IMG/VR virus record: IMGVR_UViG_3300031993_000033
Span: 40,705-104,704 of that record
Length of the DNA stretch: 64,000 bases
Source of the DNA: a virus
Lineage: Duplodnaviria > Caudoviricetes
Reading direction: 5' to 3' (one strand)
Shown here: one piece after another, positions 25,789 through 37,136 of the stretch
Position numbering within the stretch: position 1 is the first letter of the stretch
How the letters are laid out: each line of letters opens with the position of its first letter
Made by a program: the position numbers and the translations under genes
Notes under the pieces: model-generated
What the model was told of the DNA's origin: nothing
Database searches by the model: none
The model's input: the letters and a program-made list of their open reading frames with translations, nothing else

Positions 25789-26781
25789 ATGAGCGTTATC
25801 AACAAGGCGATACAGGACTATCCGAATCACAAGAAAGTAGTATTTACATCTACAGGTAAAGACAGCATGGTAACTCTTGATTTGGTAACTCGTGTTTTAC
25901 CTGATGTGGGTGTTCACTTCAATAACACTACTCTTGATACAGGCGATACCTATAAAATGGTAAAAGCTCATAAAGACTGGACAATTATCAATCCCGACAT
26001 TGGGTTCTACAAATACATCTTCAAAGAGCATTTCATTCCCACAAGATTCAGCCGTGGTTGCTGTACAGTATTCAAGGAAGGTAAGAGCATAGAATACTTT
26101 GATAGTGAACCACAGATGCTTTTCTTTATGGGCGTGAGAAATGACGAATCAGCGCAGAGAGCAGACCGACAGGATATATCGCACAATCCAAAGTGGGGAG
26201 ATCGTGATTGGTTTAGTTGCTTGCCTATAAGAAAGTGGAGTGAGCTTGACATATGGCTCTATATTCTTAAAAACGGCATTGAAATAAATCCTAAATACCG
26301 TAAGGGATATAGTAGAGTTGGGTGTTCAGTGGCTTGCCCGTATTACACCAAGTACACTTGGGTATTAGATAAGTATTGGTATCGCATGGCGTATGACCGA
26401 TGGCGCAGCATCCTGCGCAAAGTCTTTGCGCAGGAGAATCGCTGGACTAAGCTGAATTGCACTATAGACGAATATGTAAACGGAGCTTGGAATGGTGGTT
26501 TACTTAGACCAGAACCAACAGAAGAAGTTGTGACAGAGTTTATGGAGCACAAAGGACTTGACAACTATGATACGGCTTTGCAATACTTCAACAAGACTTG
26601 CGAAGTGTGCGGTAGGAACGTAAGACAGAATGATGTGCTTGCAATGAATCTGAAACTTCTCGGCAGAGGAACAAGCAAGATTTACTGCAAGAAGCATCTG
26701 AAAGAACTTTGTTGCTTAGATAATGAGGCATGGGATAATGCAGTAGCAGACTTTAAGAGGCAAGGCTGTGCTTTGTTTTAA
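25789..26781 (+). CDS. PAPS reductase / DndC-like family protein (3' part; frame open from 25699)
   Basis: STGKDS PP-loop, RGCCTVFK, GVRNDES..R, YSRVGC..CP. Confidence 0.85.
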   Translation: MSVINKAIQDYPNHKKVVFTSTGKDSMVTLDLVTRVLPDVGVHFNNTTLDTGDTYKMVKAHKDWTIINPDIGFYKYIFKEHFIPTRFSRGCCTVFKEGKSIEYFDSEPQMLFFMGVRNDESAQRADRQDISHNPKWGDRDWFSCLPIRKWSELDIWLYILKNGIEINPKYRKGYSRVGCSVACPYYTKYTWVLDKYWYRMAYDRWRSILRKVFAQENRWTKLNCTIDEYVNGAWNGGLLRPEPTEEVVTEFMEHKGLDNYDTALQYFNKTCEVCGRNVRQNDVLAMNLKLLGRGTSKIYCKKHLKELCCLDNEAWDNAVADFKRQGCALF

Positions 26782-28745: not shown

Positions 28746-29291
28746 ATGCCTTTAAATGTTGGGTATTTAACTTGTGACCGCACGGCGGCAGGAGATGAAG
28801 TATACACTCCCTACTATGCGGTTGATCCTCTGCTTGAGTTTATCCCAAAAGATAAGACGATTTGGTGTCCGTTTGACGAGGAATGGTCGGCGTTCTACCA
28901 GACATTCAAGCGGGGGGGGTATGACGTAGTTAGAAGTTCTCTTGCTGAAGGTCAAGACTTCTTCAATTATGAACCTGAGAAGTGGGACATAATGATAAGC
29001 AATCCGCCTTTTAGTAAAAAGGACGATGTGTTGCAGAGAGCTTTTGAACTCGGTAAACCTTTTGCAATCCTTCTGCCTTGCAATAGTATACAGGGCAAGA
29101 AGCGGTTTAAAATATTTCAAAACGAGATTCAGATGTTGTGCTTTGATGCAAGAATAGATTATCACACTAATGGCAATATGACTACATACACTAAGGGCAA
29201 CCACTTTGGATCGGCATATTTTTGCAGAGACTTCCTTCCGAGCAAATTGGAGATGCGAGAGCTGCACAAATATGAAAAATCACTAACGTAA
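28746..29291 (+). CDS. DNA adenine methyltransferase (NPPF type)
   Basis: DEVYTP, IWCPFD, GQDFF, SNPPFS; in-frame G8 tract at 28912-28919. Confidence 0.8.
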   Translation: MPLNVGYLTCDRTAAGDEVYTPYYAVDPLLEFIPKDKTIWCPFDEEWSAFYQTFKRGGYDVVRSSLAEGQDFFNYEPEKWDIMISNPPFSKKDDVLQRAFELGKPFAILLPCNSIQGKKRFKIFQNEIQMLCFDARIDYHTNGNMTTYTKGNHFGSAYFCRDFLPSKLEMRELHKYEKSLT

Positions 29292-31129: not shown

Positions 31130-32095
31130 TTGAAGTTGACAATGATTGAATTATTTTCTGGCATAGGTGCTCAGATCAGAGGATTTAAAAACTCTGGTTT
31201 ATTTGACACTGAGGTAATAGCAACATCAGAGATTGACAAAGATGCAATCGTGAGCTACGCTGCCGTTCACTGTGGACTTACACCAGAACTTATTGAGAAC
31301 TATGATTATCCGCCCGTAGATGAAATGGTGGAGTACCTTGAAAGTCGTAACATTGGCTATGTCTTTGAGAAGAACAAGGCTTATGACTGGCAGAAGAAAC
31401 GCAACAGTGCAGACTTAAAGAAGTATTATCTGGCATCAGTTCTTTCTAAGAATATGGGAGACATATCAAAGATAGAAGAATTGCCTTATGCAGACTTTGT
31501 AACATACTCGTTCCCATGCACCGACATCAGCATCGCTGGTCAGATTCAGGGCATTGAACGTGGTAAGACACGAAGCGGTTTGCTTTATGAAGTAGAACGC
31601 TTACTCGCAAAGGCTAAAGAGACAGACACTCTGCCGAAGTTCTTACTTCTTGAAAATGTAAAGAATCTTGTATCACAGAGATTTAAGCCACAGTTTAATG
31701 AGTGGTGCGATTATCTCAGTGAGATTGGTTATAACACTTATTGGCAGATAGTCAATGCAAAGGATTGTGGCATACCTCAGAACCGGGAACGCGTATTTGC
31801 TGTAAGTATACGCAAGGATGTAGACACTGGTAAGTTTGAGTTTCCACAGGCATTTGATACGGGCATACGTTTATTCCATGTTCTTGACTTTGATGTGAAT
31901 GAGAAGTATATTCTCACATCTGATGCTGCTGGTAAGGCACTTGATGAGATGGCTAATAACGGCACACTCTCAGAGGAAGAAGAACTATGGAATGAGCTGT
32001 ATGAGACACGCAATGACTTCCCTAATTACGGCATTATTTGCAATCAGCCTATCTATACATCTAACGATGTCACTATAGGGGGGCAGTTCCGATGA
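31130..32095 (+). CDS. C5 methyltransferase large subunit (motifs I-VIII)
   Basis: LFSGIG, SFPCTD, ENV, PQNRER; lacks motifs IX-X; ends just after a G6 tract. Confidence 0.9.
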   Translation: MKLTMIELFSGIGAQIRGFKNSGLFDTEVIATSEIDKDAIVSYAAVHCGLTPELIENYDYPPVDEMVEYLESRNIGYVFEKNKAYDWQKKRNSADLKKYYLASVLSKNMGDISKIEELPYADFVTYSFPCTDISIAGQIQGIERGKTRSGLLYEVERLLAKAKETDTLPKFLLLENVKNLVSQRFKPQFNEWCDYLSEIGYNTYWQIVNAKDCGIPQNRERVFAVSIRKDVDTGKFEFPQAFDTGIRLFHVLDFDVNEKYILTSDAAGKALDEMANNGTLSEEEELWNELYETRNDFPNYGIICNQPIYTSNDVTIGGQFR

Positions 32096-32191
32096 ATGAC
32101 CAGAACGGATATTGTCGCACACTTAAACAGCAGTATGCTAAAACAGCTATTCAGAATTTAAAGGCACATTTGGTGCAACAGGAGTAGTTCA

Positions 32192-32335
32192 ATGGAAATA
32201 AAATATGTGGGACGAGTCCTTCCCTCTACTGGTAAGCAACATCAAAATCAAGAAGTAGCCAGTGGGGGGGGTGCAATGTGGTCACTCAAATCAACAGACT
32301 ACAAAGGAGTTCCGAAAGTGTTGGTGAAAAAATGA
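32192..32335 (+). CDS. TRD mini-gene 1 (G8, in frame)
   Basis: MEIKYVGRVLPSTGKQHQNQEVASGGGAMWSLKSTDYKGVPKVLVKK. Confidence 0.65.
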   Translation: MEIKYVGRVLPSTGKQHQNQEVASGGGAMWSLKSTDYKGVPKVLVKK

Positions 32336-32521
32336 ACGTAAAACTGCTAATGACAATGCCTAATATGTATGAACATAATGGGCGGTTGTATTCCGTAGGG
32401 GGGTATGTGTACTCTATCCACGAGAGAACACAAAGATCCCTGTAAGATACTAATAAGAAAGGTAAGTAAAGATGAAAAATCAGATAAGAGTGGCGGTGGC
32501 ATTGCCAACCAATTACAGTGA
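32332..32521 (+). pseudogene. TRD mini-gene 2 (G6, out of frame)
   Basis: MNVKLL...RLYSVGG; G5 or G8 restores MCTLSTREHKDPCKILI. Confidence 0.6.
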
Positions 32522-32637
32522 GCAAGGCATTGTCGTAAGCGGGGGGGGGTATTTCTAAGACAATACTTTCCAGAGATTACAAAGATGCCAAGAAGATATT
32601 GATAAAGAGGGTTAAGAAATGCCAGACAAATACATAA
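32472..32637 (+). pseudogene. TRD mini-gene 3 (G9, out of frame)
   Basis: MKNQIRVAV...VSGGG; G8 restores ISKTILSRDYKDAKKILI. Confidence 0.65.
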
Positions 32638-32792
32638 CCATAGGGGGGGTGGACATGACTGTGAATAAACCTTGCCCTATGCAGTATGCAAGTTGTATTT
32701 TAACAAGATATGACAACGGAGTTAGCAATCAACAGAAAGCAAGAACTGGGGTGCTTCTAAAGAAAGTCAGAAAGGAAGATAAAAATGAGTGA
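32619..32792 (+). CDS. TRD mini-gene 4 (G7, in frame)
   Basis: MPDKYITIGGVDM...ASCILTRYDNGVSNQQKARTGVLL. Confidence 0.6.
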   Translation: MPDKYITIGGVDMTVNKPCPMQYASCILTRYDNGVSNQQKARTGVLLKKVRKEDKNE

Positions 32793-33277
32793 TGTGCACG
32801 ATCTCTTATCTCCCGATGAAAGTAAAGATTACATAAGGGTAAAACAAGCTACGAAGCAAGGATATATCCTTTGTGAGAATGGTGGAGTGGCTGACCTATC
32901 CTATCCAAATTCAAAGCTGCGTCGTGGCAGAGTTCAGAGGGGGGGGGCAAACCTGCCCTACTCTCACCGCAGGTAATTGCAATATATACAGAATTGAAAG
33001 GAATGATAGTATGAACGTTGAAGATTGGGCTATCCGCAAATTAACTCCTACCGAATGTTGGAGACTGATGGGTTTTACTAATGAAGATGTAGAAAAGTGC
33101 AAGGCGGTAGGTATGAGTGATACTCAGCTCTACCGACAGGCTGGCAACAGCATCGTAACAAACTGCATTGAACTGTTAGCAGAACACCTTTATAAAGCAC
33201 AGTATGATAATGACTATGAGTGTTATGACGAGAAGTTCTCCAATGTAGACAGACAGCTTGAATTTTCTTTTCAGTAA
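32785..33277 (+). CDS. TRD 5 plus C5 MTase small subunit (motifs IX-X), split by a G9 frameshift; small subunit has its own RBS and ATG at 33011
   Basis: KQATKQGY...SKLRRGRVQRGG then QTCPTLTAG; IRKLTPTECWRLMGF, QAGNSIV. Confidence 0.8.
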
Positions 33278-33291
33278 CCCCTTTCACTTCC

Positions 33292-33450
33292 TTGCCAAAA
33301 CTGGTGGGGGGGGTAGGAGAGAAGAATTATGGCACTCAATACCATCAGCAGCATAGAATATATAGTGGCTGTTGTGTAGGTATGTGTCATTGTTCAAATA
33401 TCAGTGGAGGTAGTTATCACTACGCCTTTAAGGAGATAAAAAGTGAATGA
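33292..33450 (+). CDS. TRD mini-gene 6 (G8, in frame; start uncertain)
   Basis: PKLVGGVGEKNYGTQYHQQHRIYS...GGSYHYAF; TTG start with no clear RBS. Confidence 0.5.
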   Translation: MPKLVGGVGEKNYGTQYHQQHRIYSGCCVGMCHCSNISGGSYHYAFKEIKSE

Positions 33451-33634
33451 ATTAAAACAAATAGCCGAACTCAAAATTCCACAGTGGACGGAGTGTCGGC
33501 GCAGAATATACACTACGGGGGGGGTATCTCCCACATTGAATGGCATAGGCAGAGGTGGCAACACTGAGCCTAAAATGCTTATAAGGAGCAAACATGAAGA
33601 ACGAGATAAAAGTGATAGTAAATCTGCCGATTAA
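33443..33634 (+). CDS. TRD mini-gene 7 (G8, in frame)
   Basis: AAGGAG RBS; RRIYTTGGVSPTLNGIGRGGNTEPK. Confidence 0.7.
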   Translation: MNELKQIAELKIPQWTECRRRIYTTGGVSPTLNGIGRGGNTEPKMLIRSKHEERDKSDSKSAD

Positions 33635-33752
33635 AGGCATGGATGTTATCAAGCGTTGTTACAGTGGGGGGGGTATTTCTCCTTCACTCACTACAATGCA
33701 AGGTGGGCAGCGAGAACCCAAAATTTTACAACGTAGAATAGCCAAAAAGTAG
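33594..33752 (+). CDS. TRD mini-gene 8 (G8, in frame)
   Basis: AAGGAG RBS; KRCYSGGGISPSLTTMQGGQREPKIL. Confidence 0.7.
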   Translation: MKNEIKVIVNLPIKGMDVIKRCYSGGGISPSLTTMQGGQREPKILQRRIAKK

Positions 33753-33788: not shown

Positions 33789-34697
33789 GTGAGTAATGTG
33801 ATTTTCTTTCGAGAACGAGAAGATTACAACAAGGTTATCTCTGTTAAATTGGTGATTCCTTGTGGCTGTAATGCGAAGTGCCCGTTCTGCTACAACAAAG
33901 ATAAGCCTGTAGTACAATATGATATAAAAGGTTTTTTAGATAACTTTATCCCGTCTTTAGAACATCTCTTAAATGAAATAGGAGACAAGAATCCAGTATC
34001 TCTTGATATTACAGGTGGTGAGCCTACACTTGATGTCGATTTGTTATCACTTGTATTGATTAAGCTAAGAGAGTTCCACATAAAGGATAAAGTGTTGAGA
34101 GTTACTATGACAACTAATGGCACTAACCTTTATCAGATACCGATTGAGTTAATGAGAGATGTTGTGGATTATGTAAACATCTCAGTTCACGATTATAGAC
34201 AAGCAGAGCGAGAGAACATAATGCAAATTCATACGCCAGCTTTAGCCTATAAAAGAATTATCTCTCGATTAAACTCTGTTGGTATTACTGTATCGGCGGT
34301 AGCTGTTATTTTTCGTCCGATTGAAAACTTTAATCGGTGGCGAGATAATTTTATCAATTGGGCGCAGCAACAAGGTTTTATTTCAGTAAGGTTTAGATGC
34401 GATGTATTTTGGCGTTATAAAGGTTATTTCACCAACTATATGTTTGATAGCAAAAAGGAAGATCAATTTGATATTATCAATTACGAGCATACATCTGATT
34501 CATGGTGGTGCAGATTAAGACGTAAAGACAGAATGAGAGTGTTCTTTCTGCAAGGAGTAGCAGATACCACGAAGTATACCAAAGGCATTGAATATGTCAT
34601 TCACGATGACGGCAAATGTTATTGTGATTTTTACAAGAGAACGCCTATTGACAAATATGAATATGAGATAGGTAAAATTTATGATGCGATTAATTGA
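33789..34697 (+). CDS. radical SAM protein
   Basis: CNAKCPFC, ITGGEP, TTNG. Confidence 0.85.
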   Translation: MSNVIFFREREDYNKVISVKLVIPCGCNAKCPFCYNKDKPVVQYDIKGFLDNFIPSLEHLLNEIGDKNPVSLDITGGEPTLDVDLLSLVLIKLREFHIKDKVLRVTMTTNGTNLYQIPIELMRDVVDYVNISVHDYRQAERENIMQIHTPALAYKRIISRLNSVGITVSAVAVIFRPIENFNRWRDNFINWAQQQGFISVRFRCDVFWRYKGYFTNYMFDSKKEDQFDIINYEHTSDSWWCRLRRKDRMRVFFLQGVADTTKYTKGIEYVIHDDGKCYCDFYKRTPIDKYEYEIGKIYDAIN

Positions 34698-35128: not shown

Positions 35129-35875
35129 ATGAGCAATATAGAATTATGGCAAGGCGACTGCCTTGAATTAATGGGCGGTATTCCAGATAAGAGTGTAGAC
35201 TTGATTCTTTGCGATCTTCCTTATGGTACTACTAAGAATAAATGGGATAGCACCATTAATCTTGAATCTCTATGGGGGGCGTACAAACGCATCATAAAAG
35301 ACAATGGTTGTATAGCACTCTTTGCTCAAACGCCATTTGATAAGGTATTAGGGGCAAGCAATCTTGATATGCTGAAGTATGAATGGATATGGGAGAAACC
35401 TATGGCTACTGGCAGATTGAATTGCAACTTTGCTCCTATGAAAGCACACGAGAATATATTAATCTTTTCCAAGAGTGCAGCTTGCTATGTCAAAGACAAA
35501 TCTCACGCAATGAAGTATTATCCTCAGATGACAGAGGGCAAACCTTATACGGCAATATCAGGTAGAGCCAGCACCAATTATGACACGAAATGGTCAAAGG
35601 AACAGTTGACAGTCAATCATGGCACACGTTATCCGAGAGATGTACAGAAGTTCACCCATGATAAAGATAAGTTCCACCCCACACAAAAGCCTGTTGCTCT
35701 GCTTGAATATCTCATTAAGACCTATACAGACGAAGGAGACTTAGTGCTTGACAATTGCATGGGTAGCGGTTCAACAGGCGTGGCAGCAAAGAACACCAAC
35801 AGAGATTTTATAGGCATAGAGCTTGATGAGAACTACTTTGAGATAGCTAAAAAGAGGATTGATGGTGAAAATTAA
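35129..35875 (+). CDS. N6/N4 DNA methyltransferase (paralog of 29355)
   Basis: DLPY, HPTQKPVALLEYLIKTYT, DNCMGSGSTG; G6 tract at 35274-35279. Confidence 0.9.
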   Translation: MSNIELWQGDCLELMGGIPDKSVDLILCDLPYGTTKNKWDSTINLESLWGAYKRIIKDNGCIALFAQTPFDKVLGASNLDMLKYEWIWEKPMATGRLNCNFAPMKAHENILIFSKSAACYVKDKSHAMKYYPQMTEGKPYTAISGRASTNYDTKWSKEQLTVNHGTRYPRDVQKFTHDKDKFHPTQKPVALLEYLIKTYTDEGDLVLDNCMGSGSTGVAAKNTNRDFIGIELDENYFEIAKKRIDGEN

Positions 35876-35930: not shown

Positions 35931-37136
35931 ATGATTGCGAACAGAGTAGAACAACAGATTATCCGCAGGACGCATTCGTTGTGGGGTGTCATTGACGAAA
36001 TGTGCTTTAATGCGAAGAATCTTTATAATTATGCTAATTATATTATTAGGCAGGAATATATTAATAACAAACGATATGTCTCATACAAAGAAATGAACAT
36101 CAATCTCAAAACACATCAGCAATATAAAGATTGTATGAGCCAACCTGCGAATTGTGTTCTGCGTTTGCTTGATAAGAATTGGAAGTCATTTTTTAAAGGT
36201 TTGAAAGAGTATGAAAAGAACCCAAAGAAATTTCTCGGCAGACCTCAAATGCCAAAATATCTCAAGAAAGATGGTAGATTCAATTGGATGATACCAAACA
36301 ACGCTTGCTATTTTGAGAATGGGGAACTGAAATTTAGAGTGCTCAAATTGCAATCCGTTAGGTGGAAATGCAGATGTGTCGGCAGGTTAATTCAAGTGAG
36401 ATTTGTCCCAAAGGGTTGTGTATACGTCATGGAGATAGTATCTCAGATTGAAGTTCCTGATGCTATGTCCGATAACAAGCGTATTGTAGGAATTGATTTA
36501 GGTGTTAATAATCTTGCTACAACTTCAAATAATATTGGTGAGCAGCCATTTATTATTAACGGTAGAGGATTAAAGAGCATAAACCAATTCTATAATAAAC
36601 GCAGATCTGAACTACAATCTAAATTACCCAAAGGTCAGTTTTGGAGTAAACAACTTGAACAAATAACTTTCAAGCGGTTCAACAGAGTCAAGAATTATAT
36701 GCACCACGCAAGCCATTACATAGTCAAATGGTGTGTACAACATCAGATAGATACTTTAGTTGTAGGACATAACGACGAGTGGAAACAGAACCTTAGAATG
36801 GATAAAGTAAATTCGCAGAACTTTGTTTTTATTCCTTATAAAATGTTGATACAACAGCTTAAATATAAATGTGAAGATGTAGGCATTGAGTTTGTTGAAA
36901 CTGAAGAAAGTTATACAAGTGGAACAAGTTTTTTAGATGGAGAACTACCGTGTAAAGAAAATTACAATAAAAGACGGAGAGTTAAAAGAGGGTTGTTTCA
37001 AGCAAATAATACTCTAATCAATTCAGACGTAAACGGCAGTTTGCAGATAATTAGAAAGGTATTTCCAGATGCTTTTAGCTATGGGATAGAGGTGTGTCTA
37101 ACACCTACTATAATTAATGTAGTGAATGGGTGCTAA
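35931..37136 (+). mobile_element. tnpB: solo TnpB-family RNA-guided nuclease (IS1341-like, no TnpA)
   Basis: KNLYNYANY, GIDLGVNN, EESYTS, NSDVNG. Confidence 0.85.

What the first reader, a model, noticed from the sequence alone, without database searches (positions are those of the whole stretch)
32078..33752. Split C5 methyltransferase with nine TRD modules, each under its own poly-G switch
Seen: the MTase is in pieces. Motifs I-VIII lie at 31130-32095 and motifs IX-X have their own RBS and ATG at 33011. Between and after them lie nine ~45-60 aa modules carrying (T/S)L-type TRD motifs (CRTLKQQY, SLKSTDYK, TLSTREHKDP, TILSRDYKD, CILTRYD, CPTLTAG, SPTLNG, SPSLTTMQGG). Most are separate, translationally coupled mini-ORFs missed by the ORF track. 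Every module has one G tract: G6 32078 (off), G8 32264 (on), G6 32398 (off), G9 32541 (off), G7 32643 (on), G9 32939 (off), G8 33306 (on), G8 33517 (on), G8 33666 (on). A 1-nt change in each off tract restores the TRD motif. Known: Bacillus phage multispecific MTases (SPR, phi3T) carry tandem TRDs within one polypeptide, and M.AquI is a two-subunit enzyme. Inference: TRDs are supplied in trans as exchangeable peptides, giving up to 2^9 methylation states as combinatorial anti-restriction bet-hedging. I do not know of a description of this arrangement.
Basis: partly seen in the sequence, partly recalled or inferred. Interest (0 to 1): 0.93.

Follow-up and report, generated by a model that had tools for sequence, protein, structure and literature searches.

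The report
Poly-G-switched recognition modules of phage methyltransferase
A 105-kb rumen-type phage has a DNA cytosine methyltransferase split into a catalytic core and nine small DNA-recognition modules, each with a slippery run of G whose length differs between near-identical phages, so each methylation specificity is probably switched on or off separately.

Summary
All nine G tracts are at the stated coordinates and lengths. All 11 G runs of 6 or more in the 104.7-kb circular phage genome lie in its methyltransferase island, and there is no C run that long. The core is split into alpha (motifs I-VIII, 31130-32095) and beta (IX-X, ATG 33011).

The modules match internal TRDs of single-chain multispecific C5-MTases (510-768 aa, no poly-G) in related phages. 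In about a dozen related loci the tracts range from G5 to G10 between conserved flanks. Small homologues of module 8 imply G5 to G11. Against runs from other samples, every listed indel lies in a tract, except one 7-nt indel. The ON frame after the tracts shows far more synonymous than non-synonymous changes, even in modules that are OFF here. Tracts sit at different Gly-Gly positions in relatives, which points to selection for a tract in each module.

A complex model places free module 8 between alpha and beta (0.92; best control 0.01). This may only reflect likeness to intact enzymes. Switching within one population and action in trans were not tested, because no raw reads were available. 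I found no paper on this arrangement. This scan has noted the same arrangement in at least 19 other phage genomes.

The parts
31130..32095 (+). alpha subunit: C5-MTase motifs I-VIII (FSGIG, FPC, ENV, QNRER), TTG start with an AGGAGG Shine-Dalgarno site; ends in the first half of TRD0
   Evidence: Pfam PF00145 E 3.9e-48; 96-100% identical in 9 related loci
32078..32083 (+). T1, G6, OFF. G7 fuses TRD0 (CRTLKQQY) to alpha
   Evidence: G5-G8 in 11 relatives; L024 with G7 reads through
32084..32187 (+). TRD0 second half, in the frame reached when T1 is G7. An ATG at 32092 overlaps the alpha stop (ATGA)
   Evidence: 20 synonymous against 4 non-synonymous differences summed over 7 relatives
32192..32335 (+). 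Module 1 mini-ORF (47 aa, SLKSTDYK) with T2 at 32264-32271, G8, ON
   Evidence: AGGAG 7 nt before the ATG; G6 in L031 and L020
32332..32521 (+). Module 2 (TLSTREHKD) with T3 at 32398-32403, G6, OFF (stop at 32445). ON at G5 or G8
   Evidence: G6-G9 in relatives; matches an internal TRD of L016 at E 2e-7
32472..32637 (+). Module 3 (TILSRDYKD) with T4 at 32541-32549, G9, OFF (stop at 32558). ON at G8
   Evidence: G7 in L031 and in runs X2-X4
32619..32792 (+). Module 4 mini-ORF (57 aa, CILTRYD) with T5 at 32643-32649, G7, ON
   Evidence: matches TRDs of L009, L013, L014; 30 synonymous against 2 non-synonymous; interrupted to GGTGGGG in L020 and apparently in L022
32785..32976 (+). Module 5 first half with T6 at 32939-32947, G9, OFF. 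G8 fuses it through CPTLTAG to beta
   Evidence: The G8 reading aligns over 146 aa (62% identity) with the C-terminus of the single-chain enzyme in L013
33011..33277 (+). beta subunit: motifs IX (RKLTPTECWRLMGF) and X (AGNS), own ATG with AGGA 8 nt upstream
   Evidence: Pfam positions 261-323
33292..33450 (+). Module 6 (RIYS...SGGSYHY, no TL motif) with T7 at 33306-33313, G8, read as ON. Start uncertain (TTG 33292 or GTG 33304, no Shine-Dalgarno site)
   Evidence: the frame is kept as protein in L001, L020 and L027
33443..33634 (+). Module 7 mini-ORF (63 aa, SPTLNG) with T8 at 33517-33524, G8, ON
   Evidence: AGGAG; in L020 the tract lies at the second Gly-Gly instead
33594..33752 (+). Module 8 mini-ORF (52 aa, SPSLTTMQGG) with T9 at 33666-33673, G8, ON
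   Evidence: homologues imply G5-G11; complex model
28746..29291 (+). Small N6-adenine MTase (NPPF) with a G8 at 28912-28919, ON here
   Evidence: G9, which is OFF, in L026 and L030
35129..35875 (+). N6_N4 MTase with an in-frame G6 at 35274-35279
   Evidence: no variation examined

Best explanation
This is a phage multispecific C5-cytosine methyltransferase rebuilt as a set of contingency loci. The catalytic core is always made, as alpha (motifs I-VIII) plus beta (motifs IX-X, from its own start at 33011). The target-recognition domains, which sit in tandem in one chain in related phages, are here nine separate translation units. Seven are free mini-proteins of about 47-63 aa. One joins the alpha C-terminus and one joins the beta N-terminus when in frame. 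Each carries one poly-G tract coding Gly-Gly(-Gly). Slipped-strand mispairing during replication changes the tract by 1 nt or more and puts that module in or out of frame without touching the core or the other modules. Each in-frame TRD is inferred to dock between motif VIII of alpha and motifs IX/X of beta and to direct methylation of its own target. A phage population would then carry many methylation patterns. That hedges against hosts with Type II restriction, where methylation helps, and hosts with methylation-dependent restriction, where it hurts. Shown here: the architecture, the homology of the modules to TRDs, tract variability between relatives, and selection on the ON frames and on tract presence. 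Inferred: switching within one population, assembly in trans, and separate specificities.
For: The tracts are real and confined to MTase genes. GGG is the rarest Gly codon (8%), and none of 98 Gly-Gly pairs outside the island is written GGGGGG. Single-chain homologues of 510-768 aa with several TRDs and no poly-G occur in L002, L009 and L011-L016. ON-state modules 2, 3, 4, 5, 7 and 8 match their internal TRDs. Tract lengths differ between conserved flanks in L001 and L020-L031; for example T1 is 5, 6, 7 or 8 and T3 is 6, 7, 8 or 9. L031 is 96% identical to the window over 1.8 kb, yet 8 of its 9 tracts differ. Against runs from other samples, all 12 listed indels lie at tracts except one 7-nt indel; 2 more were not shown. 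Twenty small homologues of module 8 imply G5 to G11. Synonymous changes far exceed non-synonymous ones in the ON frame after the tracts, including OFF modules. In a relative with 75% alpha identity (L027), and in L020, tracts sit at other Gly-Gly positions of the same modules while the mini-ORF starts are kept. Six of eight starts have a Shine-Dalgarno core, against 12% of all ATGs in the window. Modules 6-8 lie after the natural C-terminus of the enzyme, so they cannot be part of its chain. Free TRD mini-proteins without poly-G exist in other representative clusters. Complex model of alpha + beta + module 8: score 0.92, best of 3 controls 0.01. That mark was reached by 58 of 80 solved complexes and 2 of 110 mismatched pairs. 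Runs agree in at least 96% of contacts, and partner pLDDT is at least 83. Contacts fall on alpha 216-220 (motif VIII) and 243-249, and on beta 4-11, 16, 19-20 and 38-46.
Against: No raw reads were available, so heterogeneity within one population is not shown. The contig variants seen within a run belong to different strains. Consensus tract lengths in assemblies can be wrong. About one third of the orthologous tracts are ON (T1 4 of 12, T3 3 of 8, T6 0 of 5), which is what random lengths would give. The complex pass may come from likeness to solved single-chain C5-MTases. No C5-MTase is known to me to use a free TRD of about 50 aa. Module 6 lacks a clear start and a TL motif. No RNA or protein evidence exists for the mini-ORFs.
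Confidence: 0.6

Rival explanations
1. Cassette reservoir. The modules are mostly silent spare TRDs. Active enzymes arise when recombination or deletion, often between G tracts or similar module ends, places a TRD in frame with alpha or beta. The G tracts serve mainly as breakpoints.
For: L024 has a deletion that joins the T5 upstream flank to the T6 downstream flank at a merged tract, GGGGCGG. P0020 is a hybrid of two modules fused at GGGG. L022 lacks module 3. Modules 1, 3, 6 and 7 are swapped between the window and L001 while their neighbours are nearly identical.
Against: Most modules have their own Shine-Dalgarno site and start codon, also in L027. Free TRD mini-ORFs without any tract exist elsewhere. 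An 8-nt homology is too short for regular homologous recombination. The L024 fusion is out of frame. Recombination and frameshift switching can both occur.
Confidence: 0.15
2. Slippage during expression. The RNA polymerase or the ribosome slips on G7-G9, so every module is made at some level whatever the DNA tract length. The tracts then tune dosage instead of acting as heritable switches.
For: Long homopolymers can cause transcriptional slippage. The paper I read covers only A/T runs (PMC6260861). ON frames are conserved even where no sampled genome is ON, as at T6 (0 of 5).
Against: Length differences at the DNA level are seen directly at nearly every tract. I know of no data on G-run slippage for this host or phage, and no RNA run held the locus.
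Confidence: 0.1
3. A decaying multispecific MTase gene whose frameshifts are homopolymer sequencing or assembly errors or neutral damage, with no function for the pieces.
For: Homopolymer lengths are error-prone. L001 reads G7 at most tracts, which would leave nearly everything OFF.
Against: Synonymous changes far exceed non-synonymous ones in the ON frames. The architecture is kept at 75% alpha identity. Tracts arose at new Gly-Gly positions. GGGGGG is used nowhere else for Gly-Gly. The stops, starts and Shine-Dalgarno sites between modules are not at homopolymers. Modules 6-8 lie after the beta stop.
Confidence: 0.05

Closest known systems
Multispecific C5-MTases of Bacillus phages (M.SPRI, M.Phi3TI, M.Rho11sI, M.H2I; from my own knowledge of the Trautner laboratory work), and the uncharacterised single-chain homologues found here (L002, L009, L011-L016)
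   Same: One catalytic core serves several tandem TRDs of about 40-60 aa placed between motifs VIII and IX. The window's modules are sequence homologues of such TRDs.
   Different: Those enzymes are one polypeptide with no homopolymer tracts. Here the TRDs are separate translation units, three of them lie after the enzyme's C-terminus, and each has a poly-G tract.
M.AquI, a two-subunit C5-MTase, and split M.BspRI fragments that complement each other (own knowledge)
   Same: Motifs I-VIII and IX-X are on two polypeptides, with the break in the variable region.
   Different: Those have two pieces and one specificity. Here there are up to nine further TRD pieces, and the break is used for switching.
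Phase-variable MTases with simple-sequence repeats (phasevarions: Type III mod genes, Type I hsdS and hsdM, Helicobacter and Neisseria poly-G/C tracts; for example PMC4209511 and PMC5953494, listed)
   Same: A homopolymer inside the coding sequence shifts the frame, and its length is polymorphic among close relatives.
   Different: Those are bacterial genes with one switch per enzyme or specificity subunit, used for regulation or defence. Here a phage has nine independent switches on the specificity modules of one C5 enzyme.
Type I restriction-modification HsdS specificity subunits
   Same: A separate DNA-recognition protein is combined with a constant catalytic part. Variation in it changes the methylation target.
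   Different: An unrelated fold and enzyme class. No C5-MTase is known to me with a free specificity subunit.

Membership tests
C5 cytosine DNA methyltransferase (Pfam PF00145) | Motifs I (FxGxG), IV (PC), VI (ENV) and VIII (QxRxR) | tested here: met
   alpha matches at E 3.9e-48; FSGIG, FPC, ENV and QNRER are visible in the translation
C5 cytosine DNA methyltransferase (Pfam PF00145) | Motifs IX and X | tested here: met
   the beta ORF matches profile positions 261-323 at E 3.7e-9; RKLTPxE..LMGF and AGNS are present
Multispecific phage C5-MTase (SPR/phi3T type) | Several tandem TRDs serving one core | tested here: met
   nine TRD-like modules; six match internal TRDs of single-chain relatives
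Multispecific phage C5-MTase (SPR/phi3T type) | All TRDs and the core in one polypeptide | tested here: not met
   stops and new starts lie between modules; three modules lie after the beta stop
Multispecific phage C5-MTase (SPR/phi3T type) | Each TRD confers its own target sequence | not testable with these tools
   needs methylome mapping
Two-subunit C5-MTase (M.AquI type) | Separate ORFs for motifs I-VIII and IX-X, broken in the variable region | tested here: met
   alpha 31130-32095; beta from ATG 33011 with its own Shine-Dalgarno site
Two-subunit C5-MTase (M.AquI type) | Both subunits are needed and assemble into an active enzyme | tested here: inconclusive
   the model places the pieces as in an intact enzyme; no biochemistry
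Simple-sequence contingency locus (phase variation) | A homopolymer inside the ORF whose length sets the frame | tested here: met
Simple-sequence contingency locus (phase variation) | Length polymorphism among close relatives with conserved flanks | tested here: met
Simple-sequence contingency locus (phase variation) | Reversible switching within a clonal population | not testable with these tools
   only Logan contigs were served and no raw reads

The most novel reading that the evidence does not exclude
C5-cytosine methyltransferases can work with free, exchangeable specificity subunits of about 50 aa, much as Type I enzymes use HsdS. This phage lineage gates each subunit with its own mutational poly-G switch. 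One core enzyme could then write up to several hundred heritable, reversible methylation patterns as counter-defence bet-hedging.
Probability: 0.5. Interest if true: 0.9.

Novelty: new variant of a known kind. Interest (0 to 1): 0.8.

Why it matters
If the mini-TRDs act in trans, C5-MTases gain a mode of specificity control known so far only for Type I and Type III systems. It would also be a clear case of contingency loci used by a virus, not a bacterium, for counter-defence. The split into mini-ORFs has a simple rationale: a frameshift in one TRD of a single-chain enzyme would destroy the whole enzyme, so independent switching needs independent translation. Per-specificity ON/OFF switching makes sense if hosts carry either methylation-sensitive or methylation-dependent restriction. 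The system would also offer a natural kit of small portable TRDs for engineering methylation specificity. The arrangement recurs in rumen and gut phages, so it may shape phage host range in those communities.

Tried and rejected
The genomic context of P0007, P0008, P0015 and P0020 could not be fetched.
- blastn against GenBank phages found no close relative; only the neighbouring MTase gave weak hits.
- The look-up of sequencing runs listed no RNA holder, and every run was served as Logan contigs. Read laying therefore could not measure tract heterogeneity within one sample. The two T1 variants in run X3 belong to different strains.
- A viral-contig search with P0007, a mini-TRD without poly-G, returned mainly TRD-core matches in contigs of about 22-42 kb, whose ORFs I did not inspect, plus the far end of the L001 contig. 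It gave no new array.
- Four literature searches found no description of this arrangement. Subscription journals are not covered.
- The transcriptional-slippage paper covers only A/T runs.
- I considered G-quadruplex-driven recombination of the Neisseria pilE type and dropped it, because the tracts are 100-370 nt apart.
- Only one complex job was allowed, so no OFF-frame peptide or other module could be run as a further control.
Full report
**Observation**

The window belongs to a 104.7-kb contig with a 127-bp end overlap and 39% GC. It encodes its own DNA polymerase, a primase-helicase and an anaerobic ribonucleotide reductase, so it is a complete circularly assembled phage genome. Public runs that hold the locus are labelled bovine and goat gut metagenomes.

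All 11 G runs of 6 or more in the genome lie in a 7-kb island of DNA methyltransferase genes. Nine of them fall within 1.6 kb. There is no C run of 6 or more anywhere. Outside the island about 4.5 G runs and 4.5 C runs of that length would be expected and none occurs. Inside the array 0.3 are expected and 9 occur (P about 5e-11).

**Anatomy**

- alpha (31130-32095) carries motifs I-VIII (Pfam E 3.9e-48).
- The ORF that ends at 33277 carries motifs IX-X. An internal ATG at 33011 has its own Shine-Dalgarno core.

The nine modules lie between alpha and beta and after beta:

| Module | Coordinates | Tract | State here | Note |
|---|---|---|---|---|
| 0 | continues alpha | T1, G6 | OFF | ON at G7, fused to alpha |
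| 1 | 32192-32335 | T2, G8 | ON | free mini-ORF |
| 2 | from 32332 | T3, G6 | OFF | ON at G5 or G8 |
| 3 | from 32472 | T4, G9 | OFF | ON at G8 |
| 4 | 32619-32792 | T5, G7 | ON | free mini-ORF |
| 5 | from 32785 | T6, G9 | OFF | ON at G8, fused to beta |
| 6 | 33292-33450 | T7, G8 | read as ON | atypical, see below |
| 7 | 33443-33634 | T8, G8 | ON | free mini-ORF |
| 8 | 33594-33752 | T9, G8 | ON | free mini-ORF |

Neighbouring units overlap or abut at stop/start pairs in different frames. Six of the eight ATG/GTG starts of modules 1-5, 7, 8 and beta have a Shine-Dalgarno core of 4 nt or more at 5-8 nt. Only 12% of all ATGs in the window do. Module 6 is the exception: it has no TL motif and no Shine-Dalgarno site, and its tract comes directly after a GTG.

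**What the modules are**

Related phage contigs encode single-chain C5-MTases of 510-768 aa. These have the same N-terminal core and the same C-terminus, with several TRD-like segments in between and no poly-G (L002, L009, L011-L016).

Read in their ON frames, modules 2, 3, 4, 7 and 8 match those internal segments. Module 5 plus beta, read with G8, aligns over 146 aa at 62% identity with the last TRD and motifs IX-X of L013. Modules 6-8 lie beyond the natural C-terminus of the enzyme, so no frameshift could make them part of its chain.

**Are the tracts switches?**

About a dozen related loci from IMG/VR and JGI metagenomes carry the same array. Between flanks that match within 3 of 18 nt, the lengths vary:

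- T1 reads 5, 6, 7 or 8.
- T3 reads 6, 7, 8 or 9.
- T6 reads 6, 7 or 9.
- T9 reads 7 or 8.

L031 is 96% identical to the window over 1.8 kb, yet 8 of its 9 tracts differ. All 19 gap letters in that alignment can be accounted for by the tracts plus one 7-nt indel. When contigs from other samples' sequencing runs were laid on the window, all 12 listed indels fell in tracts, apart from that same 7-nt indel (2 more were not shown). Some contigs have no substitutions but a changed tract. Twenty small predicted proteins homologous to module 8, from public assemblies, imply tract states from G5 to G11, both in and out of frame.

**Selection**

- GGG is the rarest glycine codon (8%). None of 98 Gly-Gly pairs outside the island is written GGGGGG.
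- In the ON frame after the tracts, synonymous differences far outnumber non-synonymous ones. This holds even for modules that are OFF in the window. Examples are module 0 (20 against 4, summed over relatives), module 4 (30 against 2), and, by my reading of the alignment, the 21 codons between T6 and the beta ATG (six against none).
- In L027 (75% alpha identity) the mini-ORF layout and its starts are kept, but the module 5 tract sits at an earlier Gly-Gly. In L020 the module 7 tract sits at the second Gly-Gly, and T5 is interrupted to GGTGGGG. Tracts have therefore been gained at new positions, which argues for selection to keep one tract per module.

The small N6-adenine MTase at 28746 also has a tract. 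It is G8 and ON here, and G9 and OFF in L026 and L030.

About one third of the sampled orthologous tracts are ON (T1 4 of 12, T3 3 of 8, T6 0 of 5). That fits fast unbiased switching. It would also fit noisy consensus lengths.

**Mechanism**

The break-up has a clear logic. In a single chain, a frameshift in one TRD would remove motifs IX-X and kill the enzyme. Independent switching needs independent translation, plus a beta start that does not depend on T6. Both are present.

Whether a free TRD of about 50 aa can serve the core is the open step. One complex job (alpha, beta and module 8, each with an alignment) scored 0.92 against 0.01 for the best of three controls. That mark was reached by 58 of 80 solved complexes and 2 of 110 mismatched pairs. 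The runs agreed in at least 96% of contacts, and the partner's pLDDT was at least 83. Module 8 touched alpha 216-220 (motif VIII) and 243-249, and beta 4-11, 16, 19-20 and 38-46. That is the position a TRD has in an intact enzyme, so the pass may reflect likeness to solved single-chain MTases. It shows the pieces are compatible with the fold, not that they bind.

Independent support comes from a profile search. It found many free TRD-only proteins of 48-67 aa in other clusters, with normal Gly codon contexts (for example YSDKGVAPT). It also found two-TRD mini-proteins, and TRD plus IX-X proteins of 117 aa.

**Rivals**

Recombination also shapes the array:

- L024 joins the T5 upstream flank to the T6 downstream flank at a merged tract.
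- P0020 fuses two modules at GGGG.
- L022 lacks module 3.
- Several modules are swapped between the window and L001 while their neighbours are nearly identical.

A pure silent-cassette model fits poorly with the per-module starts. Slippage during expression cannot be excluded. Decay or sequencing artefact is largely excluded by the selection evidence.

**Novelty**

Four full-text searches found no paper on this arrangement. Earlier notes of this scan describe the same arrangement in at least 19 other phage genomes. I did not test those notes. The locus combines three known ideas: multispecific TRD arrays, split C5-MTases, and simple-sequence phase variation. The new claim is free, individually switched TRD subunits in a phage.

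**Limits**

Switching within one population, translation of the mini-ORFs, assembly in trans and the target sequences all remain to be shown.

Noticed in passing
window 28746-29291 (tract 28912-28919): A small N6-adenine MTase (NPPF motif, weak EcoRI_methylase hit) has a G8 inside FKRGGY and is in frame here. The homologues in L026 and L030 have G9, which breaks the frame. This looks like a tenth switch in the same island.
   Followed up: partly
window 35129-35875 (tract 35274-35279): An N6_N4 MTase has an in-frame G6 (LWGAY). It is the only other G run of 6 or more in the genome. I did not examine variation in relatives.
   Followed up: no
L024:2270-2330: A deletion joins the first half of module 4 to the second half of module 5 at a merged, interrupted tract (GGGGCGG). 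G tracts may also act as deletion breakpoints. The product is out of frame.
   Followed up: partly
P0020 (ENA contig of 968 bp): A hybrid mini-protein: the first half of an L001-type module 3, up to TMGGGG, is fused to the second half of module 8 (ISPSLTTMQGG).
   Followed up: no
L029:555-1579: The alpha gene of this relative is interrupted at about residue 130 by roughly 1 kb of other DNA, possibly a mobile element or an intron-like insert.
   Followed up: no
L010:3196 and 3813: A more distant relative has its alpha homologue split in frame at a C7 run, and a G7 directly before the TRD plus beta ORF. Homopolymer switches may also occur in the core in other lineages.
   Followed up: no
window 32158: A 7-nt indel (TACAGTC, present in L001, L024, X2 and X4) changes the C-terminal tail of TRD0. 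With the insert the tail reads QSKGTFGATGVVQWK; in the window it reads KAHLVQQE.
   Followed up: partly
window 33789-34697 and 35931-37136: A radical SAM gene follows the array directly. A transposase-like gene (phrog_506, 401 aa) lies at the far side of the island. In L020 the array has different neighbours, so the island is rearranged between relatives.
   Followed up: no
whole genome (G000): Outside the MTase island there are no G or C runs of 6 or more, although about 9 are expected. The phage seems to avoid such runs elsewhere.
   Followed up: partly
L001:4586: The close relative has an in-frame G7 (RRGGK) in a 380-aa gene with an SGGADS motif (PP-loop/PAPS-reductase-like by my reading, not searched against any family library). 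The window has no such tract in its own gene at 25789-26781, which an earlier scan note (e1-5961291) calls PAPS-reductase-like.
   Followed up: no
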